DNA of 64,000 nucleotides from a virus (lineage: Duplodnaviria > Heunggongvirae > Uroviricota > Caudoviricetes): the IMG/VR virus record IMGVR_UViG_3300017971_007904; one strand, given 5' to 3'. Positions 41,207 to 56,754 of the stretch are shown here, piece after piece. The number at the start of each line of letters is the position of its first letter. Within the stretch, counting starts at the first letter, position 1. Both the position numbers and the translations under genes were made by a program. A model generated the notes under the pieces. It saw nothing but the letters and a program-made list of their open reading frames with translations. It had not been told where the DNA came from and searched no databases.

Positions 41207-41209
41207 TTT

Positions 41210-41566: not shown

Positions 41567-41585
41567 CGGTTAGCACAACGTAACC

Positions 41586-42059: not shown

Positions 42060-42067
42060 GGATTGTC

Positions 42068-42415: not shown

Positions 42416-42429
42416 CCCAGGAGGCAATC

Positions 42430-42666
42430 ATGCCGAACCCCGAACTACGAGAGACAAAACCTGAACTCGCTGACGTGGTCGAACAACTTGAAGCTCGATA
42501 CGGAAGGGCTTTTGACCTTGGCGAAATGGCCGACCAAGCGACTTGCGCCGAAGGTATGCAGGAGCTTGGAAGGCACATCGCTAGGAACAGTTCGCAGGCC
42601 ACCATCAGCATTGGCGTCGGAGCCAAGGGTATCACACAAGTGACCATCACCGCAAACCCCAAGTAA
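42430..42666 (+). CDS. hypothetical small protein
   Basis: 78 aa, SD AGGAGG. Confidence 0.45.
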   Translation: MPNPELRETKPELADVVEQLEARYGRAFDLGEMADQATCAEGMQELGRHIARNSSQATISIGVGAKGITQVTITANPK

Positions 42667-42701
42667 TCAGGGAAACCCCGTAGAATCGCCCTGGTTAGAT
42701 G

Positions 42702-42731
42702 CCCTCGCACGCATGGCGTGCGAGGGTTTTT
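42702..42731 (+). terminator. Rho-independent terminator (between convergent genes)
   Basis: CCCTCGCACGC / GCGTGCGAGGG stem followed by TTTTT. Confidence 0.75.
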
Positions 42732-43177
42732 CATTTGATCATTTTGTATACGGTCTTCTCAACCTCGGTGTTCCAGGCGGCAGCCATAATGTCATCCTTC
42801 AAGTCCCAGTCGTCCACCATCCGAACTTGATCTGCGAGGATCGTAGAGACCTTCTTGTACTTCGATGACTTGTACATGTAGAACAGCAACAGGCCGATAG
42901 TGCCGATACCAAAAACTCCGATCAAGATACCGTCAGCTTGGATGTTAAGCCAGCCTTGCTGGACCTCATTATTTTCACCCTGGATTTCCAGAGCGTTTTG
43001 CAAACGGCCCAGTTCGATTTTGATGGCGTTCTGGTTGTTTTCTAGTGTGTTTTGATTCCCCTTAAGCTCTTCCAGTTGTTGTTCGAGTTCTGGGTTAATT
43101 CGGGGTGATAAATTGCCGCATCCGGATAGTGCTATCACACATATGACAGCTATCATAGCGATTGCGAGTCTAACCAT
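42731..43177 (-). CDS. lipoprotein with coiled-coil region and C-terminal TM helix (unimolecular-spanin-like architecture)
   Basis: Start at MVRLAIAM with AAGGAGG SD; lipobox LSGC; heptad-like QQLEELKGNQNTLENNQNAIKIELGRLQNALEIQ; TM segment ILIGVFGIGTIGLLLFYMY near the C-terminus. Confidence 0.55.
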   Translation of the reverse strand: MVRLAIAMIAVICVIALSGCGNLSPRINPELEQQLEELKGNQNTLENNQNAIKIELGRLQNALEIQGENNEVQQGWLNIQADGILIGVFGIGTIGLLLFYMYKSSKYKKVSTILADQVRMVDDWDLKDDIMAAAWNTEVEKTVYKMIK

Positions 43178-43264
43178 GTTCCCTCCTTTGTGAATATCTA
43201 TTGACGTAGATTGAAACTTCTGGTTCAATAAGGGTGTCAACCAAGTTCTGTGTGAGGTAGTCCT

Positions 43265-43750
43265 ATGTCTATACAACCAACGGACCCGTCTAAGCAACGG
43301 GAAATGGAGTCGTTTTTTCTGTCAGAAAGCGAACAGGACGACACTTTTACGGATGAAAGTGACGTAATGGAATTGATCGCTGTAGCGCCCAAGTCTCGTA
43401 TCCTTGAAGATGGCGATGAAGATGACACACCGGACGAGTCCGTAACAATGGAAGATGCGGCGGATTTCCTTACTCGTTTTTTCGAGGGCAAACGATGGCA
43501 TTGTGGTGGTCCGATCCCTAAAGCGGTTCTTCTATGTGACCGCCACCTGCAAATGGTTTTACGGCTTGAAATGAACGATTGCGTTGACCTCTTTTATGAG
43601 GCGCTGGGTGTTCCCAAACGATTTACTCGTAAAGAAACAAAGTTGCTATCATCTCTTTTGGATGAGGCGTACCAGAAGTCAATTCCGAAACATCATACTG
43701 GAGGTTTGGTGTTGGTGTATTTGCGGCTTTGCATCGGTCTGGATATCTGA
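43265..43750 (+). CDS. hypothetical acidic protein
   Basis: 161 aa. Confidence 0.5.
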   Translation: MSIQPTDPSKQREMESFFLSESEQDDTFTDESDVMELIAVAPKSRILEDGDEDDTPDESVTMEDAADFLTRFFEGKRWHCGGPIPKAVLLCDRHLQMVLRLEMNDCVDLFYEALGVPKRFTRKETKLLSSLLDEAYQKSIPKHHTGGLVLVYLRLCIGLDI

Positions 43751-43772
43751 TCGCAACATACTCCAATAGTGC

Positions 43773-44102
43773 ATGGACCTAGAATTGATATCAGGTGCGT
43801 TCTTTTACGATGATATCGTGCCGAAAGACAAGCGATACCTATTTAAGTACTTCAGTGGTGATCCACAACGGAGGTTTGTTGCATACGCATTTACTTTCGA
43901 GAAATTCAGAGATCGTCATGGGTCGTACAAGTTCTGCCGTGGCTTTGTAGACCATACTGGGTTTCAGGTGACACGGCGTGTCATTTTCAAATGGCTAGCA
44001 CGGATTAGAGACATCGAGGCAGCGCTATCAGAAGCCACCAAAGCTTTTGATATGCAGACGATAGAGACCATCAGGACAGGTAAATTTCGCTTTAGGTGTT
44101 AA
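43773..44102 (+). CDS. hypothetical protein
   Basis: 109 aa. Confidence 0.45.
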   Translation: MDLELISGAFFYDDIVPKDKRYLFKYFSGDPQRRFVAYAFTFEKFRDRHGSYKFCRGFVDHTGFQVTRRVIFKWLARIRDIEAALSEATKAFDMQTIETIRTGKFRFRC

Positions 44103-45073
44103 CAATGCCACAGCTTCGAGCGGTTCTCATAATGGGTTCCCCGTCTTCTGGGAAGACGAGCTATGCAATGTCGGATGTCTTCTCCAACTTTGTTCGCATA
44201 TCGCCTGAGGCATTTGACAGCAAAGAGGCATTACGAGAGACGATCCAGATCGTAGTGGAGAAAGGTCGGCACCTCGTCATCGATGCTTGTAATGGAACGG
44301 TTTCCCAGAGAAAGTTCTACATCGATATCATTCAGCCCAGTGGAAAGTATCAGATCGAATGCCACCACCTAAAGACCACCATGAGGGAAGCCAGAGACAA
44401 CGCCCGTGTTCGCCAGAAACGTGGTGGGCATCGTTTGAACACGGCTCAATTCATCAAGTACAGAAATGGCCTCGTTTCGCCGTCTGCCGAGGAAGGTTTT
44501 TCCGTTGTAGTGGAGATTGATTTTGTTCGCCGGGCCGAGCGGGAGTTTCACAATATTGGCGTCTTCTTGTCGTTATGGTCTATATGTTTCTCCAAGGTAC
44601 CGAAGGAATTTCCCCGTCATCCTGACGAGTTGGAGATGCATTCGGATATCGACGACATCTTGTTAGCGTACTTCAAGCGGGGTTACAAGTTTGTGATCTT
44701 GGCCAACATACCTGAAATTGCCGAGAGGGTTGTGACCGAGACAATGGCGCAGAATTGTATCATCGAGGCTATCAAAAGGTTATCGGTGCCCGTTGATGCG
44801 TTCTACTACAGCCCCCACGCATTGACTGAAGCTCACGATACAACCCTTCCTAACACCAAGTTTGCTATCTTGGCGAGAGACAAACACAAGATCGACCTGG
44901 GTCGGTCTACCATGGTGGGCCACTCAGAAGTAGAGAGGTGTTTCGCTCGCCAAGCCGGATTTGGATTGTACCTGCCAAGAGATCAGTTCTTTTGGAGTGG
45001 CAGGAACCGCCTGACGGAAGAAGAGCCGGATGGCGAAGCAAAAGAAGCCCTCAAAGTGGTGGAAGACTCATGA
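44096..45073 (+). CDS. P-loop kinase-like protein (polynucleotide-kinase-like N-terminus)
   Basis: Walker A MGSPSSGKTS within the first 25 aa; C-terminal half sits where T4 Pnk carries its HAD phosphatase, but the DxDGT motif is not conserved. Confidence 0.5.
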   Translation: MLTMPQLRAVLIMGSPSSGKTSYAMSDVFSNFVRISPEAFDSKEALRETIQIVVEKGRHLVIDACNGTVSQRKFYIDIIQPSGKYQIECHHLKTTMREARDNARVRQKRGGHRLNTAQFIKYRNGLVSPSAEEGFSVVVEIDFVRRAEREFHNIGVFLSLWSICFSKVPKEFPRHPDELEMHSDIDDILLAYFKRGYKFVILANIPEIAERVVTETMAQNCIIEAIKRLSVPVDAFYYSPHALTEAHDTTLPNTKFAILARDKHKIDLGRSTMVGHSEVERCFARQAGFGLYLPRDQFFWSGRNRLTEEEPDGEAKEALKVVEDS

Positions 45074-45705
45074 GTGTTTTGAAGATTCGAGATGATGACC
45101 TTCTTTGGAAGTACTACCAGAAGTATTACACGGTGGATGACCTTAAGGTTCCACATCCGCAGAACCTCTGTAACTACTTTTGGACGGCGGTCTTTGGTGC
45201 TATTCGATCCTTCTATATTGAAAAGCCGCTGTGGGTCGTTTGGCTGTCCGCCATTGTCTTGATTGGTGGGGTGCAGATGCTATTCTCTTGTTTGGGAACT
45301 TGGAATTTACCCGTGTTCATTCGTGTGTTCTTTGTTCCGCTTATTTTTGTCATACCTATAAGCGGGGCATTAACACTCGCCTCGACAGGGGGACGATTAA
45401 AGGGTTGGGCACTTTCCATCTATGCTGGTCTTCTACTGGGGGCGGTCATCGGTATGTTCATCGGGGCTCTGATGCTGGCGTTCAATGATCCTAACCTCAC
45501 ATGGGAGTCGTTTCTATTGTGCTTTGCTGCTCTCGCAGGTGCCGCTCTGGTGGTCGGCGTGTTCATAGGTCTAGGCTTCTTGATATATACCATCTGTAAA
45601 CCGGTGGCTGGCTGGCGGTTTGTTAAGACGATAGGCGTTTACCTTATGGCCGTCAAGCATCGTATGTGTCCTTTGATGGAACCTCCCCAGTCATTCAAAG
45701 AATAA
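45070..45705 (+). CDS. integral membrane protein (about 4 TM helices)
   Basis: ATG at 45070 overlapping the previous stop (ATGA); hydrophobic segments. Confidence 0.5.
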   Translation: MSVLKIRDDDLLWKYYQKYYTVDDLKVPHPQNLCNYFWTAVFGAIRSFYIEKPLWVVWLSAIVLIGGVQMLFSCLGTWNLPVFIRVFFVPLIFVIPISGALTLASTGGRLKGWALSIYAGLLLGAVIGMFIGALMLAFNDPNLTWESFLLCFAALAGAALVVGVFIGLGFLIYTICKPVAGWRFVKTIGVYLMAVKHRMCPLMEPPQSFKE

Positions 45706-46150
45706 CCGAATCTTCATCGACACAGATACCTCGATAGACATTCACACAGTCAGAATCTTCCGACACCATGAGGTAGTCGAGATGGTAGTCGGAGGTGAAA
45801 TACTCGCAAAATGAAGGGGTGTCGCTGGTGGCGTAGGCTGCTTGACCCTTTTGATAGACGAAGTCTTCCTCGCCGCCACACAAGACAATTTCGTCAGCAA
45901 AGTCGTCGCTATCAAAACAGTCGATTTCTTCGCCGAAACCCTCACAAATGGCGCAAATCATGCTACCGCTTAGATACGTCACGATCAAGGAGTAGTCACC
46001 GAGTTCGGCGATTGCGATATCCACACCGTCGACATCGTACCTCTCAACTTGGTTGATCACAAAGTCCTCTTGACCAGTGAACTGCTTTGATATTTCATCG
46101 TCGACCGATATCATTGCACCGCTTTTCAGCATGGCCAGTTCGTCAATCAT
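45695..46150 (-). CDS. hypothetical acidic protein
   Basis: 151 aa, Asp/Glu/Cys-rich. Confidence 0.45.
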   Translation of the reverse strand: MIDELAMLKSGAMISVDDEISKQFTGQEDFVINQVERYDVDGVDIAIAELGDYSLIVTYLSGSMICAICEGFGEEIDCFDSDDFADEIVLCGGEEDFVYQKGQAAYATSDTPSFCEYFTSDYHLDYLMVSEDSDCVNVYRGICVDEDSVIL

Positions 46151-46273
46151 GCGTATCTCCCTTTTCGTATATCTAGTAACATCCCAGATTTTATGACTAA
46201 TTTGCCTAAGGAATGTGGGTTCTGGATGCCGATAAAGGAAATAGACCCAATTTATCTCCTAAAGGATTAACTG

Positions 46274-46849
46274 ATGCCTGGCTCATTACCCTTCGTTAAA
46301 GCTGAGATGCAGAGACTGTATGAGAAATACCTAGGAAGTGATCTTGTGCAAAGACGGCGTTTAGGCGACAATAACTTAGACGATGATGAGTCGTTAGCTA
46401 AAGCTGGAGCATCTACCATGAACGAAGATACAAGACAGAAAGATATCGTCGACATACAGGAATCACTTGAGATTCAAGCGATTCCTGGTAGGACGTATCT
46501 GTGCGTTGTGGTTTTGGACTCTCCCAAAGAGGGTCAGAGGCGTATGCACAAAGTGCGGCATGTTCGGTGTTATCACGGTTCGGCTTTCACTCAAGGCTAT
46601 CCCTACGATCAGAATAGCGACTCATATCTAATCAACTGCGTAGAGGCTCTACACATAGGCCACATTTCACTTGCATTTCAAGTGGCCGTGCCTGATACGG
46701 AATGGAAAGTGACGATTCCCGTGCCGCCATCTGTTGTGGATCGCCACCTGTCCGATTCTCAGAAAGCAGAACTCAAAATGATACGAGACAGGTATAAGGA
46801 CGACCGGTTTCAACTTAAGATGGTACAAATGTCGGGGTGTGAGTGCTAA
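46274..46849 (+). CDS. hypothetical protein
   Basis: 191 aa. Confidence 0.5.
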   Translation: MPGSLPFVKAEMQRLYEKYLGSDLVQRRRLGDNNLDDDESLAKAGASTMNEDTRQKDIVDIQESLEIQAIPGRTYLCVVVLDSPKEGQRRMHKVRHVRCYHGSAFTQGYPYDQNSDSYLINCVEALHIGHISLAFQVAVPDTEWKVTIPVPPSVVDRHLSDSQKAELKMIRDRYKDDRFQLKMVQMSGCEC

Positions 46850-47415
46850 CAATGGCTGCTATCGATAAGAAAGAACGAAGGCTGCAAGCTAGAATAACGC
46901 CTGCGAAGGAAGAGTACTTCATGGGCGTTTTGTTCATGCTATCCGCCATATGCAAGGACCCACATGGCCAGGAAGCGGCCCTATTGATCGATAACAAGGA
47001 TCGGCTAATCACCTTTGGAGTCAACCATATCTCACAGCCCGCAGGTTACCAGAACAGAAAGCTCAGTTGGGACCCCGAGGATCGGTACCTTGGGATGACC
47101 GCTTCCGGCGACTCAGCAATGGATCGGGCTTTGAAATTGTATGTCCCAGCGTCGACGATGTGCGAACCGTTTACAAGCCACACGATGTATCTGACTGGAC
47201 CGCCGACTTTGCGGTTGGTTAACCGAGCGGCGGCGAATGGTCTCAAGAATTTCATATATGGGCCACTAAGGTCTCAGATGTTTGACGAAGACGATTGGAA
47301 GCAGGCGGTCGAGCTTGCCAAAGTACACGACATGACACTGAAGGAGTTTAATGGGAATTTAGGTTGGTTGCGTGATCGCACGAAAGCCCTATCTGAGACA
47401 TTCCGTTTATTCTAA
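46843..47415 (+). CDS. dCMP-deaminase-fold protein with degenerate zinc/catalytic motifs
   Basis: KEEYFMGVLFMLSAICKDPHGQEAALLIDNKDRLITFGVNH parallels the dCMP deaminase N-terminal core (EYFMxVAxLSAxRSKDPxxQVGAxIVxxxNKIVGIGYNG), but the HAE and PCxxC positions read GMTASGD / PASTMCEP. Confidence 0.45.
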   Translation: MLTMAAIDKKERRLQARITPAKEEYFMGVLFMLSAICKDPHGQEAALLIDNKDRLITFGVNHISQPAGYQNRKLSWDPEDRYLGMTASGDSAMDRALKLYVPASTMCEPFTSHTMYLTGPPTLRLVNRAAANGLKNFIYGPLRSQMFDEDDWKQAVELAKVHDMTLKEFNGNLGWLRDRTKALSETFRLF

Positions 47416-48256
47416 CGGTTTGCCGCTGGATAGGATCAATGTTCAATCACTATATACTTACATGACAAATTCCTGCTCAACAACTAGTGGTGTGAATCAG
47501 TTAGGTTGTCCCGACCCATCGTTGGGCATCTGTCCTGACTTTCGCATCAAACGACATGACACGAAACCACCCTTCGAGGTAGTAGTAAAAGATTGTAACG
47601 AGCCGATTGACTTGACCAATACAGTTGTCGAGGCTTCCATGTGGGCTACGGCAAAATTCAAGTCGGCAGTTGCGGAAACGGATACGTACTTCCGTTTGGC
47701 TGATGACATCGGATTTGAGCAATCTATGGTTGGAGATATCATCGTAATCGCAAATCAGGTACGAGCACCAGAGCAGATGCTTGTAACTGGTTTCGATGAA
47801 GAGAATAAGTTGATTCGGGTTCAAAGGGAATACAACGGAACGAAAGCTTGGCCATACAAGAAAGGCACCCCAATCAGGATATTTAGATTCATCAATTCGG
47901 TCGGTTCGACCGAGATGACGTATATGGATATCGCACAGGTGGATGGAACAACTGAAGAAGATGTTCTGGTTGAAAGCAAATTGATTTATGAGTGGACATC
48001 ACAGGACACCTGCCTTCCTGGCTGTTATTATCTGGAGTTGAAATTACTGAAAATGGTTTTACCTAACGGTTCTCCAAGTAATGTGTCTTCAATGTACCTT
48101 ACATCGCCTATAGTACCGAGTTTTGTTAGTCCCAGTGCCTCTGATCTAGGGTGCGACCTTGGATTGGGGGTTGAATGGGTTCGTCGATTTCCGGTGGACA
48201 AACCCGGTTTCCTTATCGAAATTGTCGATTCTCCGACAAATGAAAACCTTGTGTAA
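47372..48256 (+). CDS. hypothetical protein (start ambiguous: GTG 47372 or ATG 47462)
   Basis: 294-aa ORF; no clear SD at either start. Confidence 0.45.
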   Translation: MIARKPYLRHSVYSNGLPLDRINVQSLYTYMTNSCSTTSGVNQLGCPDPSLGICPDFRIKRHDTKPPFEVVVKDCNEPIDLTNTVVEASMWATAKFKSAVAETDTYFRLADDIGFEQSMVGDIIVIANQVRAPEQMLVTGFDEENKLIRVQREYNGTKAWPYKKGTPIRIFRFINSVGSTEMTYMDIAQVDGTTEEDVLVESKLIYEWTSQDTCLPGCYYLELKLLKMVLPNGSPSNVSSMYLTSPIVPSFVSPSASDLGCDLGLGVEWVRRFPVDKPGFLIEIVDSPTNENLV

Positions 48257-48270
48257 AGGGGGTTAAACTC

Positions 48271-49893
48271 ATGCCTAGTGTAGCGCAGTTCCTAATGGAG
48301 CGACTCGATCCATTAGTAGATTCAATCTTCGGTATTCCAGGCGACTACATCCTAAATTTCTACAACCAAATAGACCAGAAATTCGATGTGATCAATACCA
48401 CGGATGAGCAATGCGCCGGGTTTGCGGCGGATGCTTATGCACGAGTCCACGGCTTTGGCGTGGTATGTGTCACCTATTGTGTTGGCGGCTTTAAGTTACT
48501 CAACTCAGTAGCGTGCGCCTACGCTGAAAAGTCGCCAGTCTTGATTATCAGTGGTGCCCCTGGCGTAAAGGAGAGGCATGCTGGGTTACTACTCCATCAT
48601 GCTGCTGGGCCGTATGAGTGCCAACGACGTGTCTTCGAGCACGTCACCTGCGCAAGCGCTATCCTCGATGACCCAACATGGGCTGGTCACGAGATTGACC
48701 GTGTCATTGATGCGATACAGCACTTCAAGCAGCCCGGCTACTTGGAGATACCTAGGGACATGGTCGACAAGAACGTCAAGTACGATGTGTACGCTCAGGG
48801 TACGCCACAGTCCTTCGTGGGAGACCCGGAGAATCTCCAAGAGGCTCTCGAAAAGTCCATCGAGTGGATCAGCAACAGCGAAAAGCCGGTGATCCTCGCT
48901 GGTGTTGAACTCGCCCGTTTCGATCTGGGTTCAGAGTTGATTAAGTTCGCAGAGCGAACTAACATTCCTGTGGCCACGACAATTCTCGGCAAGTCAGTTG
49001 TCAGCGAGTACCACCCGCTCTGCCTCGGTGTGTACGGCGGAACGATGAGTCGTGATGTGGTACGGGAAATGGTCGAGACCTCCGATTGCGTTCTACAGTT
49101 GGGCGTGATGCAAACCGACATGAACTTGGGCTTCCGACCCTTCCAATGCAATCAAACCAACGTGATCATGGCGAACACGGATCGAGTTCGTATTCGTCGG
49201 AGTACCTACGAGAACGTTGCCTTCTTGGAGTTCGTTAACAGCCTTCTCAAGTCCGAAGTCGAACCGAAGGTCTCGGTGAAGGTTCCCCGAAAGCAAGTCA
49301 CTAAGTTTGTTCCGCAAAATTCGCCGATCACTGCGGAGCGGTTGTTCGAGAAGATCGATTCGATCCTCGACACCAACACAGCTATCATCGCTGATGTCGG
49401 CGACAGTTTGTTCGGCGCAACGGACCTGACCGTCCGCCACCACAACCACTTTCTGGCCCCGGCGTTCTACACCAGTATGGGCAATGCCGTGCCCGGAGCC
49501 CTCGGCGTCCAGACGGCCATCCCTGATGTTCGTCCAGTCGTCATCGTCGGCGATGGGGCGTTCCAGATGACTGGTATGGAAATATCGACCATTGTGCGGC
49601 GAGGTTTGAACCCCATTATCATTGTCCTCAACAATGACGGGTATGGGACAGAGCGATGCCTGGGCAATGATGGCCAATACAATGACCTACAGCGGTGGGA
49701 TTACCACCGGGTCACAGAAGTCGTAGGTGGTGGTAACGGTTTTCTTGTTGAAAATGAGCGAGAGTTGGATGCGGCGATGACCGAAGCTTTAGCAGATAAA
49801 AAATCGGTCTCGATCCTCAACGTCGTTATTGATAGGATGGACGTTACGCCAGCCCTGAAACGAATGACAGCCAATTTGAAAGATAGAGTATAG
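48271..49893 (+). CDS. thiamine-diphosphate-dependent 2-keto-acid decarboxylase (indolepyruvate/pyruvate decarboxylase family)
   Basis: N-terminal PYR domain GIPGDYILNF...; C-terminal TPP-binding motif GDGAFQMTGMEISTIVRRGLNPIIIVLNNDGYG; 540 aa. Confidence 0.85.
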   Translation: MPSVAQFLMERLDPLVDSIFGIPGDYILNFYNQIDQKFDVINTTDEQCAGFAADAYARVHGFGVVCVTYCVGGFKLLNSVACAYAEKSPVLIISGAPGVKERHAGLLLHHAAGPYECQRRVFEHVTCASAILDDPTWAGHEIDRVIDAIQHFKQPGYLEIPRDMVDKNVKYDVYAQGTPQSFVGDPENLQEALEKSIEWISNSEKPVILAGVELARFDLGSELIKFAERTNIPVATTILGKSVVSEYHPLCLGVYGGTMSRDVVREMVETSDCVLQLGVMQTDMNLGFRPFQCNQTNVIMANTDRVRIRRSTYENVAFLEFVNSLLKSEVEPKVSVKVPRKQVTKFVPQNSPITAERLFEKIDSILDTNTAIIADVGDSLFGATDLTVRHHNHFLAPAFYTSMGNAVPGALGVQTAIPDVRPVVIVGDGAFQMTGMEISTIVRRGLNPIIIVLNNDGYGTERCLGNDGQYNDLQRWDYHRVTEVVGGGNGFLVENERELDAAMTEALADKKSVSILNVVIDRMDVTPALKRMTANLKDRV

Positions 49894-49903
49894 GAGAACA
49901 GTT

Positions 49904-50431
49904 ATCGATAAGAAGCGTTCACACCAACCAGATCAACGACGCCCTACAAACAATAATATCAGGGCGTCCAAGGTTCGAGTAATCTTGGAAGGTCGCAATA
50001 TGGGTATTGTTTCAAGGTATGATGCCCTTACTCTCGCCAGAGAGCGAAAGCTTGACCTCGTCCAGGTCTCGGAAAGTAAGAAAGGGGAACCTCCCGTTTG
50101 CCAAATCATCGATTACGGTAAGTTCTGTTACAACCAGAAGAAACGGGCGAAGAAGAATAAGCAGAAACAAATTGACTGGAAGGAAGTGCGAATGACGCCC
50201 GGTACGGGTGAGCACGATATCCAGACTAAGATACGCCAGATTCGACAGTTTTTAGAACAGGGCAAGTATGTAAAGCTCGCTATCAAATATCGAAGGCGAC
50301 AGATTGTCCATGTTGACGAAGGTCACAAGATCATGGAGAGCGTGCTTGCTGCCATTGAGGATGTGGGGAAATCACAAAATCGACCCCGTATGGAAAACAG
50401 ACAGCTTACCATCCACATCGTTCCCAAATAG
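49904..50431 (+). CDS. infC: translation initiation factor IF-3 with a non-AUG (AUC) start codon
   Basis: Translated sequence RRPTNNNIRASKVRVILEGRNMGIVSRYDALTLARERKLDLVQVS..EPPVCQIIDYGKF aligns with E. coli IF3 ([61 protein letters not shown]); the conserved N-terminus has no in-frame AUG/GUG/UUG upstream, only ATC at 49904 preceded by AGGAGA SD with a 6-nt spacer. Confidence 0.75.
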   Translation: MDKKRSHQPDQRRPTNNNIRASKVRVILEGRNMGIVSRYDALTLARERKLDLVQVSESKKGEPPVCQIIDYGKFCYNQKKRAKKNKQKQIDWKEVRMTPGTGEHDIQTKIRQIRQFLEQGKYVKLAIKYRRRQIVHVDEGHKIMESVLAAIEDVGKSQNRPRMENRQLTIHIVPK

Positions 50432-50439
50432 GCTCACCG

Positions 50440-51879
50440 ATGCCTACTACCAACGAGAACATCGCTCTTAAATTAACGAGGTTGCTTCGTGAAGGTCGCT
50501 TCCTTGATGCTGCGCACTTCTACCGGGATCAGAGTGGGGTTAGTCGTGATGAAGCATCGGGTTTCATTGCCGACCTCATCCAAGGGATTCATGTGGATAA
50601 GCCTGATCTTTTTGGCCACCTTAAAGCTAAGAACAAAATCCCAGATGATGTCGAAGAGGCTCAGGAGATAGCCCTCTCTACACTAGGTAAACCCTCGAAG
50701 TGTCTCCCAAAATCGAAGGTGAGTATTCTGGAGAAGCTCGCTGACTATGATGCGGACCTCATTGTATTCGCTCTCGGTGATCTGGGTCGAGATTTCTTAA
50801 GATTTCGAGATAGCGTGAATGCTGGACATCCGTGTTTGAGTCGGATCAACAGTGGTACACTTGTGGAAGGGGGTAAAGTTTTTGAACGGCTCTACGAGTC
50901 GGTCGTGCTGGCGAAGTTCGCCAAAGAAAACAAACTTTGCACGATGCCGCTTGTGATACGTGATTGGCTCAATCGAAACCATGGCCGCATCCGCAAAGTC
51001 ATGCAGAAACCACCCGCCTCTATATACAAGAGTCCGGCGTCCCGTAAGGCGGCTCGTAGTATCGCCAAGCAGAAAGACATTAACTTGAGTGAGGTGCTTG
51101 AGCGAGGCCGTCGAACAAGTTGGGATGGCCTCCCAAAGTCATTTGTACCCTTTGTTCGCCAAGGCCCTGGCTTCCGAAAGGAAAAGGAGAGGATAGGCAA
51201 AATGGCTAGCGAGTTCAAGTCGCTAGGAATGATTAACCAGGAAAGTGCAATGTTGGTGTCTGTGTCTGCTATGGACGACTGTATCTCCGATCAGTATTGT
51301 GGCTTCGTCCGAATCAAAATGACCGACGCCGCTCTCATAGCTGCCAAGACTATGAGGGCCGAATGGAACAGAGTTCTGGGCACCCGCATCGCCATCCCAA
51401 CAAGTCACTTTACCGTCCCCGTATGGTTAACTAACAACACCGGCGATAAGATGGAGGACGATCCGCTCCTTACGGATGTTTACGAGCGACACATCCAAGT
51501 TGAGGCTAACTACCCCCAGACGGGAAGTTCTGTCATATCGCTCACCTACGCCCCCAGAGCGTATCCCCTGTGTCATTTTACAGCCGAGATGCCCGAGAGG
51601 GCGTCTCGGCTCATCGAAGCCGTAGAAAGCCACCCAGACGCCGCAGGGGGCCCCCTGTTCGATAATCTGTGGGTGATCGTCCCCTCGGTGCATGTCAACC
51701 CAAAAAAAGGAGATCATTACGAGTTCTTTGACGGGGCGACACACCGCAAGTACTATGAGTATTGGGAATACTGCAAGGCGCTCGATACCTACCTTGTCGA
51801 AACACAACAGGTTTTTCCGTTGCTCCTAGGCGAACAAGTTATGCTGAAGAAGTGTTACTTCTTAGGATATTGGGCATAG
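50440..51879 (+). CDS. hypothetical protein
   Basis: 479 aa immediately downstream of infC. Confidence 0.55.
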   Translation: MPTTNENIALKLTRLLREGRFLDAAHFYRDQSGVSRDEASGFIADLIQGIHVDKPDLFGHLKAKNKIPDDVEEAQEIALSTLGKPSKCLPKSKVSILEKLADYDADLIVFALGDLGRDFLRFRDSVNAGHPCLSRINSGTLVEGGKVFERLYESVVLAKFAKENKLCTMPLVIRDWLNRNHGRIRKVMQKPPASIYKSPASRKAARSIAKQKDINLSEVLERGRRTSWDGLPKSFVPFVRQGPGFRKEKERIGKMASEFKSLGMINQESAMLVSVSAMDDCISDQYCGFVRIKMTDAALIAAKTMRAEWNRVLGTRIAIPTSHFTVPVWLTNNTGDKMEDDPLLTDVYERHIQVEANYPQTGSSVISLTYAPRAYPLCHFTAEMPERASRLIEAVESHPDAAGGPLFDNLWVIVPSVHVNPKKGDHYEFFDGATHRKYYEYWEYCKALDTYLVETQQVFPLLLGEQVMLKKCYFLGYWA

Positions 51880-51890
51880 TCTTTGTTGAA

Positions 51891-51924
51891 CCACCACCCG
51901 CACGCCTAGGCGTGCGGGTGGTGG
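51891..51924. terminator. strong GC hairpin between convergent genes (putative bidirectional terminator; weak U-tract)
   Basis: CCACCACCCGCACGCC / CGTGCGGGTGGTGG stem with 4-nt loop. Confidence 0.5.
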
Positions 51925-51934
51925 TGGTGGGTAC

Positions 51935-52294
51935 TCAAACTGGTGATTGGCTCCAAGAGTTTCCTAAGGTATCAAGGTCTTGGATGATTTGGGGTAATTG
52001 CTGTTGCTGCCAAGATGATGGCATATCGACTGCCGTGCGTTGAAGTCTATCTTTCACGAGTCGCACATTTCGTGCTGACCGTTTCCCAAAGCTTTTCAGG
52101 TTATCGTTGATACTCTTGATCATATCACGCATCCTCTTAGCCTCTCCTGTAAATGAGCTTCCGCCATAACCGGTAACGCCCGTTGCGCCGCCTCCAACGA
52201 CATCTTGAAAAGCTTGCCAAGTGCGGTTCAAGATTTCTTCTTCTTCGGCGGTTGCCCTGCCCATCTCGGCTAAGAATTGCTTGAATTTCTCCAT
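51935..52294 (-). CDS. hypothetical protein
   Basis: 119 aa. Confidence 0.45.
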   Translation of the reverse strand: MEKFKQFLAEMGRATAEEEEILNRTWQAFQDVVGGGATGVTGYGGSSFTGEAKRMRDMIKSINDNLKSFGKRSARNVRLVKDRLQRTAVDMPSSWQQQQLPQIIQDLDTLGNSWSQSPV

Positions 52295-52350
52295 GACATA
52301 TCCTCTGGTGATATGTAGTTGGATTTGCTGGATTATTACTCATTCACGGT

Positions 52351-52743
52351 ATGAAGAAGATACATTACCTGATATTTGGGTGGGTGAGTTTCCTGCTACT
52401 ATATGCCGCAGCATTGGGTTGGTATGTGCGGTATTGGTCTCAGTCGCCCCAAACCCAGCTACCAACAGCGAGTGTCTTACTGTTGGAAGAAGTGTCACCC
52501 GCCTCCTACCAGAATCTTGCCCTGGATGTTTTCCTCTTTCCAGAGGTGAAGCCATTGATCGAGATGGCGATGGAAGATGATAAAGTGACTATGTTGGAAC
52601 TGCATTACATTTACAGTAGTTGGGAGTGGTGGCTAAGTTACGAATCGCCTAATCCCCTCGTCCGAAAATGGGTCGAGCGCAAGGGTGAGGCGACGAAATT
52701 GTACAAACGAGAGTTGAGAGAAGCCTTAAAGGAGGCAAGATGA
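52351..52743 (+). CDS. hypothetical membrane-anchored protein
   Basis: N-terminal TM helix; ATGA overlap with the downstream gene. Confidence 0.5.
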   Translation: MKKIHYLIFGWVSFLLLYAAALGWYVRYWSQSPQTQLPTASVLLLEEVSPASYQNLALDVFLFPEVKPLIEMAMEDDKVTMLELHYIYSSWEWWLSYESPNPLVRKWVERKGEATKLYKRELREALKEAR

Positions 52744-53633
52744 AAACCATTGGTGTTGTTGGTTGTGGGTTTGTGGGTACGGCGGTTGCCAAGGGTATGT
52801 GTCATGCATTTCAGGTATATGGTGTAGACAAGAAGGACCCTGGCTTGTTAAAGAAGTGGTGTGGCTTAGACGACCACGTAGTTTCAGCAGGGGGAAACGA
52901 TTCGTTAGAGGAACTTATCGAGAGGGTGGATGGACCCATCTTCATTTGTGTGCCGACGCCGATGAGACCTAATGGTAGTTGTGACACTACCATTGTGCAG
53001 TCGGTGATATCTGGTATCGACTCTTTAGCTCTTGTGGCGAAACGTCAGATTGTGGTAGTAATCAAATCGACGGTACCGCCCGGCACAACAGATCGTTTGA
53101 ATGGGCAGTTTCACCATGTACATGTGTGCTTCAATCCTGAGTTCTTAAGGGAGGCTACGGCGGTGGAGGACTTCAAGAACCAAGATAGAATCATTCTAGG
53201 TGGCCCTCGTTCTGGTACGAACATCTTGAAGCAAATGTACCAACATGCGTATCCCGATGTTCCCACCACGAAGACACACTCGACAATCGCAGAGATGGTC
53301 AAATATGTGACCAACTGCTTTCTCGCCACAAAAGTGAGTTTCGCTAATGAGGTTTACCAGTTGTGCGAGGCTCTGGAGATCGATTATGACAAGGTCGTAG
53401 AGTATGCAACTAAGGATAAGCGGCTTGGCATATCGCACTGGGCGGTGCCAGGACCTGATGGGCATTACGGTTTTGGTCTAACGTGCTTCCCTAAGGATTT
53501 GAATGCACTCATGTACAAGGCCGGGGAGTTGGGTGTGGAACCGACAATCATGCAAGCTGCTTGGCGTAAGAATTTGGAAGTTCGACCAGAAAAGGATTGG
53601 GAGCAGATGAAGGGCCGTGCTGTTAGCGAATAG
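52740..53633 (+). CDS. UDP-glucose/GDP-mannose dehydrogenase-family protein, short form (paralog of 31437..32234)
   Basis: MKTIGVVGCGFVGTAVA Rossmann fold; VIKSTVPPGTTDRL; FNPEFLREATAVEDF...RIILGG; 297 aa, no C-terminal UDP-binding domain. Confidence 0.7.
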   Translation: MKTIGVVGCGFVGTAVAKGMCHAFQVYGVDKKDPGLLKKWCGLDDHVVSAGGNDSLEELIERVDGPIFICVPTPMRPNGSCDTTIVQSVISGIDSLALVAKRQIVVVIKSTVPPGTTDRLNGQFHHVHVCFNPEFLREATAVEDFKNQDRIILGGPRSGTNILKQMYQHAYPDVPTTKTHSTIAEMVKYVTNCFLATKVSFANEVYQLCEALEIDYDKVVEYATKDKRLGISHWAVPGPDGHYGFGLTCFPKDLNALMYKAGELGVEPTIMQAAWRKNLEVRPEKDWEQMKGRAVSE

Positions 53634-53641
53634 GAGGTTGC

Positions 53642-54127
53642 ATGGATTTTGAATCATTTCGGATCAAGAAGGATAAATTGGCGGTCAAATCGCATGAGGA
53701 GTACATGGGAATTGCGATAACTGCGGCTAAGGCTGCCAAGTCGAAAGGATTTGCGCCTATCGGTGCGTGTTTAGCTTTCACCAGTAGCCACCTAAGTGAG
53801 CACTCTACTGGCGATGTGCTGCGAACCGCTGGTATCAACGTCATTCGGAAGGCGATGGATATGTTGCCATACAAAGTGCCTAATAGTGTTTTGTATTGTA
53901 CCGTGGAGCCTGACGCTCTTACGGCGCTGGCGGCATACAAAAGTGGTATCAATGAGATTGTATTTGGTGCATTCGACCCCAAGAATGGGTTTGTTAGTTC
54001 TACTTCAAGGAATCTAAATCCCGAACTTTGCGCCATAAAGCAACGGGGTGGCGTTCTAGCGAATGAGTGCTGTGAGCTTTTATCTGAAGATATGAGGGAA
54101 TATTGTGAGACCGACCCCCAAACCTAA
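53642..54127 (+). CDS. TadA/cytidine-deaminase-fold protein with degenerate active site (predicted catalytically inactive)
   Basis: Aligns with TadA (HEEYMGIAITAAK..PIGACLAF; LYCTVEPDALTALAAYKSGINEIVFGAFDPKNG; LANECCELLSE), but PCxxC reads PDALT and HAE reads HST. Confidence 0.55.
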   Translation: MDFESFRIKKDKLAVKSHEEYMGIAITAAKAAKSKGFAPIGACLAFTSSHLSEHSTGDVLRTAGINVIRKAMDMLPYKVPNSVLYCTVEPDALTALAAYKSGINEIVFGAFDPKNGFVSSTSRNLNPELCAIKQRGGVLANECCELLSEDMREYCETDPQT

Positions 54128-54410
54128 GCGTGTGCATTGCACCGAAAAGGACATTCTATTGGCTCTAAGGGAAGCCTTCGAGGCGGGGCTGTCCAGTCCT
54201 TATGAATTGAAGTCACAAGAGGTCAATAGGATTTACAAGAAGTTGGCCGAGTCGCCTAAACCACGACCTCCTAAGGTCAAACCGTCCATCTGTCCAAATT
54301 GTTCTTCCTCTAATCTTGAGCACATGGTAGAATCGTGTGGTTTTGTTGGGCCTATTTACACCACAAAATGCAAGGACTGTTGGTATCGGTCATTTGGATC
54401 GGGGGTTTGA
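54105..54410 (+). CDS. hypothetical protein with C-terminal Cys pairs
   Basis: GTG start with GAGGGA SD; CPNC...CKDC. Confidence 0.4.
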   Translation: MRPTPKPKRVHCTEKDILLALREAFEAGLSSPYELKSQEVNRIYKKLAESPKPRPPKVKPSICPNCSSSNLEHMVESCGFVGPIYTTKCKDCWYRSFGSGV

Positions 54411-54412
54411 AC

Positions 54413-55501
54413 ATGGCACAAGACTACTACGAAACTCTTGGTCTCAAAAAAAACGCCTCGCCCGACGAGATTAGCGATGCTTACCGTGAGATGGCAAAGC
54501 TATATCACCCGGATCGCAACCCTGGTGACGAAGAGTCGGTGAAACGGTTCAAAGCTTGCGCTGAAGCTTTCGAGGTCCTGAGCGATCCCGTGAGGCGACG
54601 GGAGTTCGATCAGTATGGTAAGGTCGGGGGTGGACCGTCCATTCATATTAACCCATTCGATGTTTTCAACAACATCTTTGGCGATCCATTTGGCGACCGT
54701 CCCCGAAAAGGCGCAGATATTCATAGAGAGGTTCGGCTCTCACTTAAAGAGGCGTTCACCGGTTGCAAGCGAACGATTACCTCATGTGCTCACGTCAACT
54801 GCGAGCCGTGCGCCGGTACCGGGGTTTCAAAATGGGATTCTTGTCCGACATGTGGAGGTGAAGGTCAGGTTGTTACCCAAAGAGGGCCGATTTCTATCGC
54901 CGTTACCTGCACCCGTTGCCAGGGTAGAGGAGAGCTTCCTGTTGTCAAGTGTGAAGAATGCGGCGGCGAAGGTCGCATAGCTTGTAATGAGAAGGAACAC
55001 GAAATCAATCTTCCCCCTGGAATTGATACCGGCGTCAGTGTGAAGTTGCCAGGAAAGGGAGAGGTTTCTCAGAGCGGTTATGCAGGTGACCTGTATTGCA
55101 CCGTGTATGTAGACCCTGATGACCTCTTTGAGCGAGATGGTCCCGATCTATTCTGTGCGGTACCCATAACCTACGCCCAGGCTATTCTCGGCCACAAGAT
55201 GAAATTGCCATTGCTTTCGGGAAATCAATGTACTGTTAAGATTCCGCCCGGCACCCGATCTGGACAACTCCTGCGCATTGCCGGGATGGGAATGCCAACG
55301 ACGGTCGACCGGATGCGCAAGAAAAAGCCCTTTGGAGACTTGATAGTTCGTGTCGACATACAAATCCCCACCGAGCCTAGCAAAAAATATCTGGATTTGG
55401 TTAAGAAATTGGCTGATTTAGACGATAACGAATCATATGGGAGGATTCTGTCGTTTGAATCCTGTGTTGACAAATGCCGAGCTTTAGAAAAAGGAGCCTA
55501 A
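54413..55501 (+). CDS. dnaJ: DnaJ (Hsp40) co-chaperone
   Basis: J domain with HPD motif (DYYETLGL...LYHPDRNPGD); four CxxCxGxG zinc-finger repeats; C-terminal substrate-binding domains; start at ATG 54413 with GGGGGT SD. Confidence 0.88.
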   Translation: MAQDYYETLGLKKNASPDEISDAYREMAKLYHPDRNPGDEESVKRFKACAEAFEVLSDPVRRREFDQYGKVGGGPSIHINPFDVFNNIFGDPFGDRPRKGADIHREVRLSLKEAFTGCKRTITSCAHVNCEPCAGTGVSKWDSCPTCGGEGQVVTQRGPISIAVTCTRCQGRGELPVVKCEECGGEGRIACNEKEHEINLPPGIDTGVSVKLPGKGEVSQSGYAGDLYCTVYVDPDDLFERDGPDLFCAVPITYAQAILGHKMKLPLLSGNQCTVKIPPGTRSGQLLRIAGMGMPTTVDRMRKKKPFGDLIVRVDIQIPTEPSKKYLDLVKKLADLDDNESYGRILSFESCVDKCRALEKGA

Positions 55502-55503
55502 CT

Positions 55504-55707
55504 GTGCAATTTCTCACAAAGTCATGGCTATTCCCAGCTATTTTGGTTATCTTCGCATTGATTGCTATCGTCCATCAGACCAACTTCTCAGTTGTGGATT
55601 GTCTTCCGGATCGGCTCGTGGATCGAGTTGCGGATCGAGTGATCGAGAAGCTGGATGCTGACTACAGTCCATTTGGACCCTCGGGACCTGTGGAACCCGG
55701 CAACTAG
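55504..55707 (+). CDS. small membrane protein
   Basis: GTG start with AAAGGAG SD; hydrophobic N-terminus. Confidence 0.4.
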   Translation: MQFLTKSWLFPAILVIFALIAIVHQTNFSVVDCLPDRLVDRVADRVIEKLDADYSPFGPSGPVEPGN

Positions 55708-56156
55708 TGGCCGTATTGGTCTGTTGGGCCGACAGAGCCACTCGTGGGCGACTTATGTCCCCATGTGCGGACGAACACATCAGGTTTGGCTTGTACTAGC
55801 TTGTAGTCGCTTAGGCTGCCGTCTTGGTCGAAGACGACATGGATAATATCACCTTCTTTGGGTGGCTCCGTGTCTTTCGATACGAATTTGTCGTATGGAA
55901 TGTTGACCTCTGCGGAGTTCCCATTCGGGTCTTCAACAGAGAGGGTGACGGTATCTCCCTCCACCTCTTTACTGCGAATGACACCTTGGATATCGCTCTG
56001 TCCGAGGACCATCCGCACCCCAGGCATTTCTTGTTGACGGCCTGAGCCAGTAGGTTTGGTTCCTTCGGGCTCGAAGTAACCCGCCGTTATCTCTAGGAAT
56101 TTTCGGAATCTCATTTCTCTGATGTATATAGGAGAACCAATGAGAATCAAGAACAT
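55704..56156 (-). CDS. hypothetical protein (start uncertain)
   Basis: 150-aa ORF; an alternative start at 56114 gives 136 aa. Confidence 0.4.
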   Translation of the reverse strand: MFLILIGSPIYIREMRFRKFLEITAGYFEPEGTKPTGSGRQQEMPGVRMVLGQSDIQGVIRSKEVEGDTVTLSVEDPNGNSAEVNIPYDKFVSKDTEPPKEGDIIHVVFDQDGSLSDYKLVQAKPDVFVRTWGHKSPTSGSVGPTDQYGH

Positions 56157-56454
56157 TCATCCACTTATACCGTTCTGCGTAGAACTAGAATCTGGCGGTT
56201 CGGCCTTCTTCTTTGTTGATAAGGATTGCCGAGAACTTATTCCGTTGAACTCGTCCACCTCACAGGGGTGGTATGAGGATTCATGGAATGAATTGACGGA
56301 GGCCGTTTTTGCCGAGCTTGATGAGCAAGACGCCACAGTTTTCAAAGCCCCGGTAATTCCGAAGCAGGTATTGGAATCGGCCAATAAGTGTACGTTGAAG
56401 ATGAATCAATACCGGGAAGAGGCGGTAAAGAAAGCGGGTCCTAATGCATTTTGA
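56140..56454 (+). CDS. hypothetical protein
   Basis: ATG at 56140 with AGGAGA SD. Confidence 0.45.
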   Translation: MRIKNIHPLIPFCVELESGGSAFFFVDKDCRELIPLNSSTSQGWYEDSWNELTEAVFAELDEQDATVFKAPVIPKQVLESANKCTLKMNQYREEAVKKAGPNAF

Positions 56455-56710: not shown

Positions 56711-56754
56711 TACTCATATACTCATAATAACCCCTTAAGATTGTGAGTGTATGT

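What the first reader, a model, noticed from the sequence alone, without database searches (positions are those of the whole stretch)
49892..50431. IF3 (infC) that appears to start with AUC behind a perfect SD
The conserved IF3 N-terminal domain aligns from 49904 and has no in-frame AUG/GUG/UUG upstream. The only candidate initiator is ATC at 49904, six nt after AGGAGA. Bacterial infC uses an atypical AUU start for IF3-dependent autoregulation. An acquired IF3 that kept, or re-evolved, a non-canonical start implies the virus exploits the same discrimination circuit.
Basis: partly seen in the sequence, partly recalled or inferred. Interest (0 to 1): 0.65.

Follow-up and report, generated by a model that had tools for sequence, protein, structure and literature searches.

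The report
Phage IF3 gene starting at AUC
A huge-phage-like genome carries its own copy of translation initiation factor IF3 that, like bacterial infC, begins at a weak non-standard start codon (AUC; AUU in most relatives), so the cell's IF3 activity probably throttles its synthesis; this is a known bacterial trick seen here in a viral copy.

Summary
The IF3 reading frame opens after TGA 49877-79 and has no in-frame ATG/GTG/TTG before TTG 49985. AGGAGA (49892-97) sits 6 nt before ATC 49904. The infC/IF3_N profiles start at residues 11-15 of the ATC-started protein, and E. coli IF3 aligns residue 14 to residue 14.

Ten diverged lineages (50-60% protein identity, synonymous sites near saturation) share the upstream TPP-enzyme gene, except L185, whose short contig could not be checked. 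At the SD-aligned position six have ATT, the window has ATC, and three have a relocated ATG. ATC recurs in independent assemblies. So AUU is probably ancestral and AUC a lineage-specific variant.

A near-cognate infC start is ordinary in bacteria: ATC in Streptomyces, ATA in Flavobacterium, and SD-backed ATC/ATA/ATT dominate my 160-locus sample. IF3 genes in huge phages are also known. The other phage IF3 genes I checked use ATG or GTG, and I found no paper noting a near-cognate start in a phage copy.

Most likely mechanism (inferred): total IF3 activity, host plus phage, represses initiation at AUC, giving negative feedback. Verdict: new member of a known kind, moderate interest. Side lead: this phage clade has mostly lost the basic residues that contact the initiator tRNA elbow (E. 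coli R66/R25).

The parts
48271..49893 (+). Upstream thiamine-pyrophosphate (TPP) enzyme gene, 540 aa. Its TAG stop (49891-93) overlaps the IF3 Shine-Dalgarno sequence. The TPP->IF3 gene order is conserved in the relatives whose contigs show the upstream gene, and in the roughly 590-kb LR756511-type phages.
   Evidence: Pfam TPP_enzyme_N/M/C. Synteny seen in L001, L002, L179, L181, L183, L184, L186 and L012.
49892..49897 (+). Shine-Dalgarno sequence AGGAGA, 6 nt upstream of the start codon.
   Evidence: Sequence. Homologous AGGAGA/GGAGGA/AGGGAGA/AGGAGC blocks lie 6-8 nt before ATT in L002, L003, L004/5, L179, L183 and L184.
49904..49906 (+). ATC (AUC), the inferred near-cognate initiation codon of IF3.
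   Evidence: There is no canonical in-frame start between TGA 49877-79 and TTG 49985. It is positionally homologous to ATT in six relatives. E. coli IF3 residue 14 aligns to residue 14 of the ATC-started protein. ATC is identical in the independent assemblies L006 and L007.
49904..50431 (+). IF3 (infC) coding sequence, 175 aa plus a TAG stop.
   Evidence: TIGR00168 at 162 bits. PDB IF3 chains match at E 2e-34.
49946..50155 (+). IF3 N-terminal domain (aa 15-84). It includes N16, I19, V24 and R25, all of which lie upstream of the first canonical start.
   Evidence: Pfam PF05198. Invariant columns in the clade alignment.
50174..50428 (+). IF3 C-terminal (30S-binding) domain, aa 91-175.
   Evidence: Pfam PF00707.
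49985..50002 (+). TTG 49985 and ATG 50000, the starts that gene callers choose (148 aa and 143 aa). Rejected as the true start.
   Evidence: Neither has a strong SD; only a weak GGAAGG lies 7 nt before ATG 50000. They fall inside the conserved N-terminal domain. The database protein P0001 begins at ATG 50000 and so covers only 82% of the protein. These codons are not conserved as start codons in relatives.
49883..49885 (+). In-frame ATA upstream of the SD. Rejected as a start.
   Evidence: It has no SD and lies inside the end of the TPP gene. In L002 and L004 the frame opens only at or just before the ATT, so no start this far upstream is possible there.
50440..51879 (+). Downstream conserved 479-aa ORF of unknown function, 8 nt after the IF3 stop. 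It belongs to the same tightly packed co-directional gene block.
   Evidence: No Pfam hit. Syntenic 478-528-aa ORFs are present in L001, L002, L179 and L181. No promoter-like or terminator-like site lies at the TPP/IF3 junction.

Best explanation
This is a phage-borne infC gene whose translation starts at AUC 49904, positioned by the AGGAGA SD 6 nt upstream and read by initiator tRNA as fMet. AUC is a near-cognate codon that IF3 discriminates against on the 30S subunit. Synthesis of the phage IF3 should therefore vary inversely with the total IF3 activity in the infected cell, host plus phage. That is the same negative-feedback logic as bacterial infC, so the gene would be expressed mainly when IF3 becomes limiting relative to ribosomes. 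Shown here: the gene's identity, the absence of a canonical start, the SD-aligned AUC, and conservation of AUU/AUC at that position across deeply diverged relatives. Inferred: that AUC is the codon actually used, that IF3 represses it, and that the feedback is what selection maintains. The gene is probably co-transcribed with the upstream TPP-enzyme gene. Because that gene's stop overlaps the SD, translational coupling may contribute.
For: (1) The frame opens at 49880, and there is no ATG/GTG/TTG until codon 28 of the ATC-started protein. (2) The infC and IF3_N profiles begin at aa 11-15, and E. coli IF3 aligns residue 14 to residue 14, so the N-terminal tail has the bacterial length. (3) The clade of TPP-syntenic loci splits as follows: ATT behind an SD in L002, L003, L004/5, L179/180, L183 and L184; ATC in the window; a relocated ATG in L001, L181/182 and L185. 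Between the window and L002, 15 of the 18 nt spanning the SD, spacer and start are identical. Meanwhile third-codon-position identity at identical residues is only 34-52%, so the ATY is not shared merely through recent ancestry. (4) In L002 and L004 the frame opens at or just before the ATT, which excludes an upstream start. (5) ATC is present in independent assemblies. (6) Among 160 bacterial-type infC loci, an SD-backed ATC/ATA/ATT is the commonest arrangement, and ATC is forced (no canonical alternative) in 13 + 6 loci. (7) From the literature: AUU-to-AUG abolishes infC autocontrol, and infC uses AUU or AUC (PMC5499595); ATC in Streptomyces (PMC5472188); ATA experimentally proven in F. johnsoniae (PMC7797042); AUC initiates at 1-2% of AUG and yields an N-terminal Met in E. 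coli (bioRxiv 10.1101/063800). (8) IF3 is the only convincing SD-backed near-cognate start in the 64 kb. (9) There is no significant RNA structure around the start (z = -0.34) and no Rfam element, so the start codon itself is the only regulatory feature found.
Against: There is no experimental evidence for the initiation site or for repression. Three of ten clade lineages have moved to ATG. The Atu_ph07 and Phosso genes use GTG, and EJP2, LR756504, LR756501 and LR756500 use ATG, so a phage IF3 gene does not need a near-cognate start. The LR756511 group is ambiguous: an ATT sits at SD distance and an ATG follows 2-3 codons later. The NJ tree used to argue that AUU is ancestral has weak bootstrap support. 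The host is unknown, so host IF3 behaviour is assumed by analogy with studied bacteria. No capsid or terminase gene lies in this window, so 'phage' rests on relatedness to LR756511 and on PHROG-type gene content.
Confidence: 0.7

Rival explanations
1. The near-cognate start only keeps expression low, or is an inherited relic of the bacterial donor gene, and the phage gains no feedback function from it.
For: Three of ten lineages replaced it with ATG, and every other phage IF3 gene examined uses ATG or GTG. This shows the feature is dispensable in phages.
Against: The ATY survived in seven lineages whose synonymous sites are near saturation, even though one T/C->G change would create ATG. None of the three ATG lineages arose by that simple substitution at the homologous codon. 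Any AUC start is unavoidably subject to IF3 discrimination (established biochemistry; PMC5499595), so 'low expression' and 'IF3-sensitive expression' cannot be separated physically.
Confidence: 0.2
2. Translation starts downstream at TTG 49985 or ATG 50000, as gene callers assume, giving an N-terminally truncated IF3 of 148 or 143 aa.
For: These are the first canonical start codons. The database protein P0001 is called from ATG 50000. A weak GGAAGG lies 7 nt before ATG 50000.
Against: This would delete 27-32 residues, including the clade-invariant N16, I19 and V24, and also R25. R25 is invariant in bacterial IF3 and needed for full function (PMC9723500). The upstream frame stays open and conserved at the protein level in all relatives. 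The TTG and ATG are not conserved as start codons; they are Leu or other codons in relatives. L001 encodes the full-length tail from an ATG.
Confidence: 0.05
3. Initiation at AUC is driven mainly by ribosomes terminating at the TPP-gene stop TAG 49891-93, that is, by translational coupling or re-initiation. IF3 output would then track translation of the upstream gene rather than the free IF3 level.
For: The stop codon overlaps or abuts the SD in the window, L001, L002, L003, L183 and L012, and lies within about 11 nt in L004, L179 and L184. No promoter or terminator signal lies at the junction.
Against: A strong SD at optimal spacing is maintained, which is typical of de novo 30S initiation. 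In E. coli, IF3 overproduction also lowers re-initiation (PMC2268962), so coupling would not remove IF3 sensitivity. This explanation modifies the main one rather than excluding it.
Confidence: 0.2
4. The window is cellular or plasmid DNA rather than a virus, so this is simply a host infC gene with its usual start.
For: No capsid, terminase or tail gene was found in the 64 kb. Many of the genes are metabolic. The huge-phage paper notes that some large plasmids carry similar sets of translation genes (PMC7162821).
Against: The thrS-infC-rpmI-rplT context is absent. The protein is at most 48% identical to any bacterial-type IF3 retrieved. The nearest annotated relative for both DnaE and IF3 is the 595-kb uncultured phage LR756511, which shares the TPP->IF3 synteny. 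The split DnaE with an intein, PhoH, dCMP deaminase, HNH genes, tmRNA and the PrkA/DUF444/SpoVR set are typical of huge phages.
Confidence: 0.1

Closest known systems
Bacterial infC autoregulation through a near-cognate start codon (E. coli AUU; Streptomyces ATC; Flavobacterium johnsoniae ATA)
   Same: It is a two-domain IF3 with a basic N-terminal tail of the same length. It has a strong SD at optimal spacing followed by an AUH codon, no canonical start upstream of the N-terminal domain, and conservation of the AUH in relatives. Gene callers truncate the protein in the same way as reported for Streptomyces and F. johnsoniae (PMC5472188, PMC7797042).
   Different: It is carried on a huge-phage-like genome. 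It lies between a TPP-enzyme gene and an unknown ORF, not in a thrS-infC-rpmI-rplT operon. The repressor pool would be host IF3 plus phage IF3. The protein is at most 48% identical to bacterial-type IF3s and lacks the basic residue equivalent to E. coli R66.
IF3 genes of huge and jumbo phages (Al-Shayeb et al. 2020 genomes LR756500-511; Agrobacterium phage Atu_ph07; Sinorhizobium phage Phosso; Asteriusvirus such as EJP2 and Sharanji)
   Same: All are phage-encoded IF3 genes found among other translation genes (tmRNA, an aaRS-like gene and peptide deformylase in this window). LR756511-type phages share the TPP->IF3 gene order and a related DnaE.
   Different: Those genes start with GTG (Atu_ph07, Phosso) or ATG (EJP2, LR756504, LR756501, LR756500). 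LR756511 and L186 are ambiguous, with an ATT at SD distance and then an ATG. Among the phage IF3 genes I examined, only the window's clade keeps an unambiguous near-cognate start.
Other IF3-controlled near-cognate starts (E. coli pcnB AUU; Streptomyces sigR GTC)
   Same: Expression is set by IF3 discrimination at the start codon.
   Different: Those genes are targets of IF3, not IF3 itself, so they form no feedback loop.

Membership tests
Translation initiation factor IF3 (infC; TIGR00168; Pfam IF3_N + IF3_C) | Both the IF3_N and IF3_C domains are present, in order, above the curated cut-offs. | tested here: met
   IF3_N scores 90.6 bits against a cut-off of 26.9, and IF3_C 89.3 against 34.8. 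TIGR00168 scores 162 bits against 60. PDB IF3 chains match at E 2e-34 over aa 16-175.
Translation initiation factor IF3 (infC; TIGR00168; Pfam IF3_N + IF3_C) | Conserved functional residues (E. coli numbering): R25, C65, R66, Y75, D106. | tested here: inconclusive
   R25, C65, Y75 and D106 are present in the window protein. R66 is Q (window residue 67). That position is R or K in 160 of 160 bacterial-type loci, although one retrieval pattern allowed only Q or R there.
infC-type autoregulated gene (near-cognate start discriminated by IF3) | No canonical start codon is available upstream of the conserved N-terminal domain. | tested here: met
   The in-frame codons from 49880 to 49984 contain no ATG, GTG or TTG.
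infC-type autoregulated gene (near-cognate start discriminated by IF3) | An AUU/AUC/AUA codon at optimal distance from a Shine-Dalgarno sequence. | tested here: met
   AGGAGA, then 6 nt, then ATC.
infC-type autoregulated gene (near-cognate start discriminated by IF3) | The near-cognate start is conserved among relatives. | tested here: met
   ATT or ATC is present in 7 of 10 lineages at 50-60% protein identity, while 3 lineages have ATG.
infC-type autoregulated gene (near-cognate start discriminated by IF3) | Expression is repressed by IF3, and the repression is lost when the start is changed to AUG. | not testable with these tools
   This needs reporter or in vitro translation assays. It is known for E. 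coli infC (Butler et al. 1987 and Brombach & Pon 1987, as cited in PMC5499595).
Bacterial thrS-infC-rpmI-rplT operon | infC is flanked by thrS upstream and by rpmI-rplT downstream. | tested here: not met
   A TPP enzyme lies upstream and a 479-aa ORF with no Pfam hit lies downstream. The same order is seen in relatives.
Huge-phage genomes carrying translation genes (LR756511-type) | Homology and synteny with a genome deposited as a phage. | tested here: met
   The best phage hit for DnaE is LR756511 at 40% identity over 83% of the query. IF3 is 39% identical. The TPP->IF3 order is present in LR756511 and in the 587-kb contig L186.
Huge-phage genomes carrying translation genes (LR756511-type) | Virion hallmark genes (major capsid, portal, terminase). 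| tested here: inconclusive
   None was found among about 75 ORFs of this 64-kb window; there were only ClpP-type 'head maturation protease' hits. The remainder of the 297-kb contig was not available.

The most novel reading that the evidence does not exclude
The phage IF3 may not be a simple spare copy but a relaxed-fidelity variant. Nearly every lineage of this clade has lost one of the two basic residues that hold the initiator-tRNA elbow. E. coli R66 becomes Q, H or L, and R25 becomes L in L002, L003 and L184. In E. coli, mutating these residues raises initiation at AUU and AUA. If the phage factor displaces host IF3 on 30S subunits, it would loosen start-codon proofreading cell-wide. It would then derepress its own AUC start, turning the classical negative feedback into a host-repressed, self-reinforcing takeover switch.
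Probability: 0.12. Interest if true: 0.7.

Novelty: new member of a known kind. Interest (0 to 1): 0.35.

Why it matters
The finding shows that at least one deep clade of huge phages kept both the IF3 protein and the cis-acting trick that ties its synthesis to cellular IF3 activity. That argues the viral copy is dosed rather than simply over-expressed, which bears on how large phages manage host ribosomes. There is also a practical lesson. Standard gene callers truncate this protein by 27-32 residues; P0001, P0003-P0006, P0016, P0017, P0080 and P0091 are all truncated this way. Surveys of phage translation genes therefore mis-annotate it and miss the feature. The loss of tRNA-elbow contacts in the same proteins gives a concrete, testable lead on whether phage IF3s alter start-codon fidelity.

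Tried and rejected
- **Close relatives in phage collections.** Megablast of window 40000-60000 against the phage collection found nothing. A single-sequence scan of IMG/VR found nothing, and a profile scan found only three distant loci at 36-39% identity.
- **Metagenome and GTDB scans.** These returned only bacterial-type IF3s at 36-48% identity, not clade members. I used them instead as a baseline for start codons. Close relatives came from the protein database plus contig look-ups.
- **RNA regulatory elements.** The fold of 49860-49960 is no better than shuffled sequence (z = -0.34). Rfam finds only the tmRNA. Promoter and terminator scans are at background.
- **Other near-cognate starts in the window.** A scan for SD-backed near-cognate starts opening ORFs of at least 80 codons found only IF3 plus four weak or trivial candidates: 3403, 11025, 12548 and 63419. 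So there is no sign of general near-cognate usage.
- **Split intein in DnaE.** I checked whether the two DnaE halves are joined by a split intein. The junction sequences show no obvious intein ends.
- **Tree.** The NJ tree of IF3 has weak bootstraps apart from a few small groups, so the ancestral-state argument is only suggestive.
- **Rejected starts.** ATA 49883 has no SD, and the frame is closed there in relatives. TTG 49985 and ATG 50000 lie inside the conserved domain.
Full report
**1. What is in the sequence**

The ORF 48271-49893 is a 540-aa thiamine-pyrophosphate enzyme (Pfam TPP_enzyme_N/M/C). It ends in TAG at 49891-93. The sequence then reads TAGGAGAACAGTTATCGATAAGAAG.

- AGGAGA occupies 49892-97.
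- A 6-nt spacer follows.
- ATC occupies 49904-06.

The ATC frame is closed upstream by TGA 49877-79. It contains no ATG, GTG or TTG until TTG 49985 (codon 28) and ATG 50000 (codon 33). Other in-frame near-cognate codons exist. ATA 49883 has no SD and lies inside the end of the TPP gene. ATC 49958 and ATC 49982 lie inside the conserved domain.

Translated from ATC, the 175-aa product is a full IF3:
- IF3_N covers aa 15-84.
- IF3_C covers aa 91-175.
- TIGR00168 infC covers aa 11-175, matching profile positions 3-168, at 162 bits against a cut-off of 60.
- E. coli IF3 (PDB 8jsg) aligns with residue 14 opposite residue 14, so the basic N-terminal tail has exactly the bacterial length.

**2. What the window is**

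The window carries a DnaE polymerase split into two ORFs 7 kb apart (22665-25193, which contains a Hint/LAGLIDADG intein, and 32300-34936). It also carries:
- a tmRNA (27636-27988; ARAGORN and Rfam);
- a GluRS/GlnRS-like catalytic-domain protein;
- a PrkA-like/DUF444/SpoVR trio;
- PhoH, dCMP deaminase, peptide deformylase, ClpP, DnaJ and HNH endonucleases;
- several nucleotide-sugar enzymes.

There is no nucleotide-level match in the phage collection. The best phage hit for DnaE is the 595-kb uncultured phage LR756511, at 40% identity over 83% of the query. The IF3 of that phage is 39% identical. In LR756511, and in a related 587-kb contig (L186), IF3 also lies directly downstream of a TPP-enzyme gene.

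The identical IF3 sits on a 297,696-bp contig and in several independent assemblies. I found no capsid or terminase gene within these 64 kb. 'Huge phage' is therefore well supported by relatedness but not proven from the window alone.

**3. Comparative test of the start codon**

Gene callers accept only ATG, GTG and TTG, so the database versions of this protein are truncated; P0001 starts at ATG 50000. I fetched the DNA of relatives and read the junctions directly. Every relative whose contig shows the upstream gene has the TPP gene immediately upstream; the short L185 contig could not be checked. The proteins are 50-60% identical to the window's. Third-codon-position identity at identical residues is only 34-52%, which is close to saturation.

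At the SD-aligned position:

| Lineage | Junction | Start |
|---|---|---|
| L002 | AGGAGAccagttATT | ATT |
| L003 | GGGAGGAcccagctATT | ATT |
| L004/L005 | AGGGAGAactaaaccATT | ATT |
| L179/L180 | AGGAGAatcattATT | ATT |
| L183 | AGGAGAactaccATT | ATT |
| L184 | AGGAGCaacgccATT | ATT |
| window | AGGAGAacagttATC | ATC |
| L001 | start lies 15 nt from the SD after an indel; the old codon reads ACC | ATG (relocated) |
| L181/L182 | shortened N-terminal tail | ATG (relocated) |
| L185 | different upstream sequence | ATG (relocated) |

In L002 and L004 the frame opens at or just before the ATT, which rules out any start further upstream. The residues between the ATY and the first canonical codon are conserved at the protein level; N16, I19 and V24 are invariant.

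ATC is present in two independent assemblies of the window's phage, so it is not a sequencing error. A neighbour-joining tree scatters the ATG lineages among the ATT lineages. It groups the window with L001, L002 and L003 (86% bootstrap), but most other nodes are weak.

My reading is that AUU is ancestral in this clade, that the window's AUC is a T->C variant of it, and that ATG arose by start-site turnover about three times.

**4. Comparison with other IF3 genes**

*Other phage IF3 genes.* These use canonical starts: GTG in Atu_ph07 and Phosso, ATG in Escherichia phage EJP2, and ATG in LR756504, LR756501 and LR756500. The LR756511 group is ambiguous. An ATT lies 4-6 nt after the SD, and an ATG follows 2-3 codons later, at 12-13 nt from the SD.

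*Bacterial-type infC loci.* In two samples of 80 loci each, from metagenomes and from GTDB genomes, an SD-backed ATC, ATA or ATT is the commonest arrangement. ATC with no canonical alternative occurs in 13 and 6 loci respectively.

*Literature.*
- infC 'uses either AUU or AUC' and is autoregulated by IF3 (PMC5499595).
- Streptomyces infC starts with ATC and is routinely mis-annotated (PMC5472188).
- F. johnsoniae infC starts with ATA, shown by mass spectrometry and mutagenesis (PMC7797042).
- AUC initiates at 1-2% of AUG in E. coli and yields an N-terminal Met (bioRxiv 10.1101/063800).
- IF3 genes in huge phages are known (PMC7162821, PMC7824862, PMC11895373). None of the passages I read mentions their start codons, and phrase searches for phage-encoded IF3 returned no papers.

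**5. Mechanism**

No significant RNA structure, Rfam element or promoter/terminator signal accompanies the start. The start codon itself is therefore the only regulatory feature found. IF3 is also the only convincing SD-backed near-cognate start in the 64 kb.

IF3 destabilises 30S initiation complexes on AUU, AUC and AUA; this is established biochemistry. The phage infC mRNA must therefore be translated in inverse relation to the IF3 activity present, whether host or phage.

The most likely function is homeostatic: the phage tops up IF3 when it becomes limiting, without overshooting. Excess IF3 is harmful to coupled translation and even to phage M13 propagation (PMC2268962). The stop of the upstream gene overlaps the SD, so translational coupling may add to de novo initiation. 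All of this is inferred and none of it was tested.

**6. Side observation**

The position equivalent to E. coli R66 is R or K in all 160 bacterial-type loci. In the phage clade it is:
- Q in the window, L001, L004, L179 and L185;
- H in L183;
- L in L184;
- S in part of the LR756511 group.

R25 is R in 158 of 159 bacterial-type loci but L in L002, L003 and L184. One caveat applies: one retrieval pattern allowed only Q or R at the R66 position. An independent profile-search sample shows H, S, A or Q mainly in proteins with an LR756511-like 'FTRVNF' N-terminus.

R25 and R66 contact the initiator-tRNA elbow, and alanine substitutions relax start-codon fidelity in E. coli (PMC9723500). This raises the speculative possibility that these phage IF3s have altered fidelity.

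**7. Verdict**

The feature is the ordinary infC start-codon device. AUC is a documented bacterial variant, and phage IF3 genes are already known. What is new is modest. One deep clade of huge-phage-like elements has retained the near-cognate start (AUU, or AUC here), whereas the other phage IF3 genes examined have not, and the literature I could search does not mention this.

Classification: new member of a known kind; interest about 0.35.

Noticed in passing
window 49904-50431 (residue 67 = 50102-50104); L001-L005, L179-L186: The residue equivalent to E. coli IF3 R66 (initiator-tRNA elbow contact) is R or K in 160 of 160 bacterial-type loci. In this phage clade it is Q, H or L, and it is S in part of the LR756511 group. 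R25 is L in L002, L003 and L184. In E. coli, mutating these residues relaxes start-codon fidelity (PMC9723500). Caveat: one retrieval pattern allowed only Q or R at this position.
   Followed up: partly
L012 1408-1428 (LR756511.1) and L186 1482-1503: In the roughly 590-kb LR756511-type phages, the IF3 gene has an ATT 4-6 nt after the SD and an ATG 2-3 codons further on, 12-13 nt from the SD. Which codon is used is unclear. The TPP-enzyme->IF3 gene order is shared with the window.
   Followed up: partly
window 22665-25193 and 32300-34936: The DNA polymerase III alpha (DnaE) gene is split into two ORFs 7 kb apart, with the break inside the DNA_pol3_alpha domain (profile positions 98 and 100). 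The first half also carries a Hint + LAGLIDADG intein in its PHP domain. The ends of the two halves show no obvious split-intein junctions.
   Followed up: partly
window 27636-27988: A tmRNA gene (Rfam 95.6 bits; tag peptide AEPVRMAA) lies between the two DnaE halves. Next to it is a GluRS/GlnRS-like catalytic-domain ORF (28415-29743). A peptide deformylase is also present elsewhere in the window.
   Followed up: no
window 15724-21144: A PrkA-like ORF (phrog_22605), DUF444 (18269-19501) and SpoVR (19516-21144) lie in a row. This is the bacterial PrkA/YeaH/YcgB-type stress trio, here carried by the phage-like element.
   Followed up: no
window 48271-49893 and 50440-51879; L001, L002, L181: IF3 is embedded in a conserved block: a TPP-dependent decarboxylase-like enzyme, then IF3, then an unknown ORF of about 480 aa. 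In relatives this is followed by an aldehyde dehydrogenase and UDP-glucose dehydrogenase-like genes. It is unclear why IF3 is stably linked to this metabolic block.
   Followed up: no
window 12548: A GGAGG + 7 nt + CTG opens the frame of ORF 12626-12961 a further 26 codons upstream of its first canonical start. This is a possible second near-cognate start, but it overlaps the end of the preceding gene and may be a chance match.
   Followed up: no
L015 (MT121966.1, 'Pseudomonas phage SC_8_H2H8_2017') 692-710: The annotated IF3 CDS starts at ATG 710, but three in-frame ATT codons behind GGAG lie just upstream. This looks like an ordinary Pseudomonas-type infC with a mis-called start, sitting at the edge of a phage record.
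   Followed up: no
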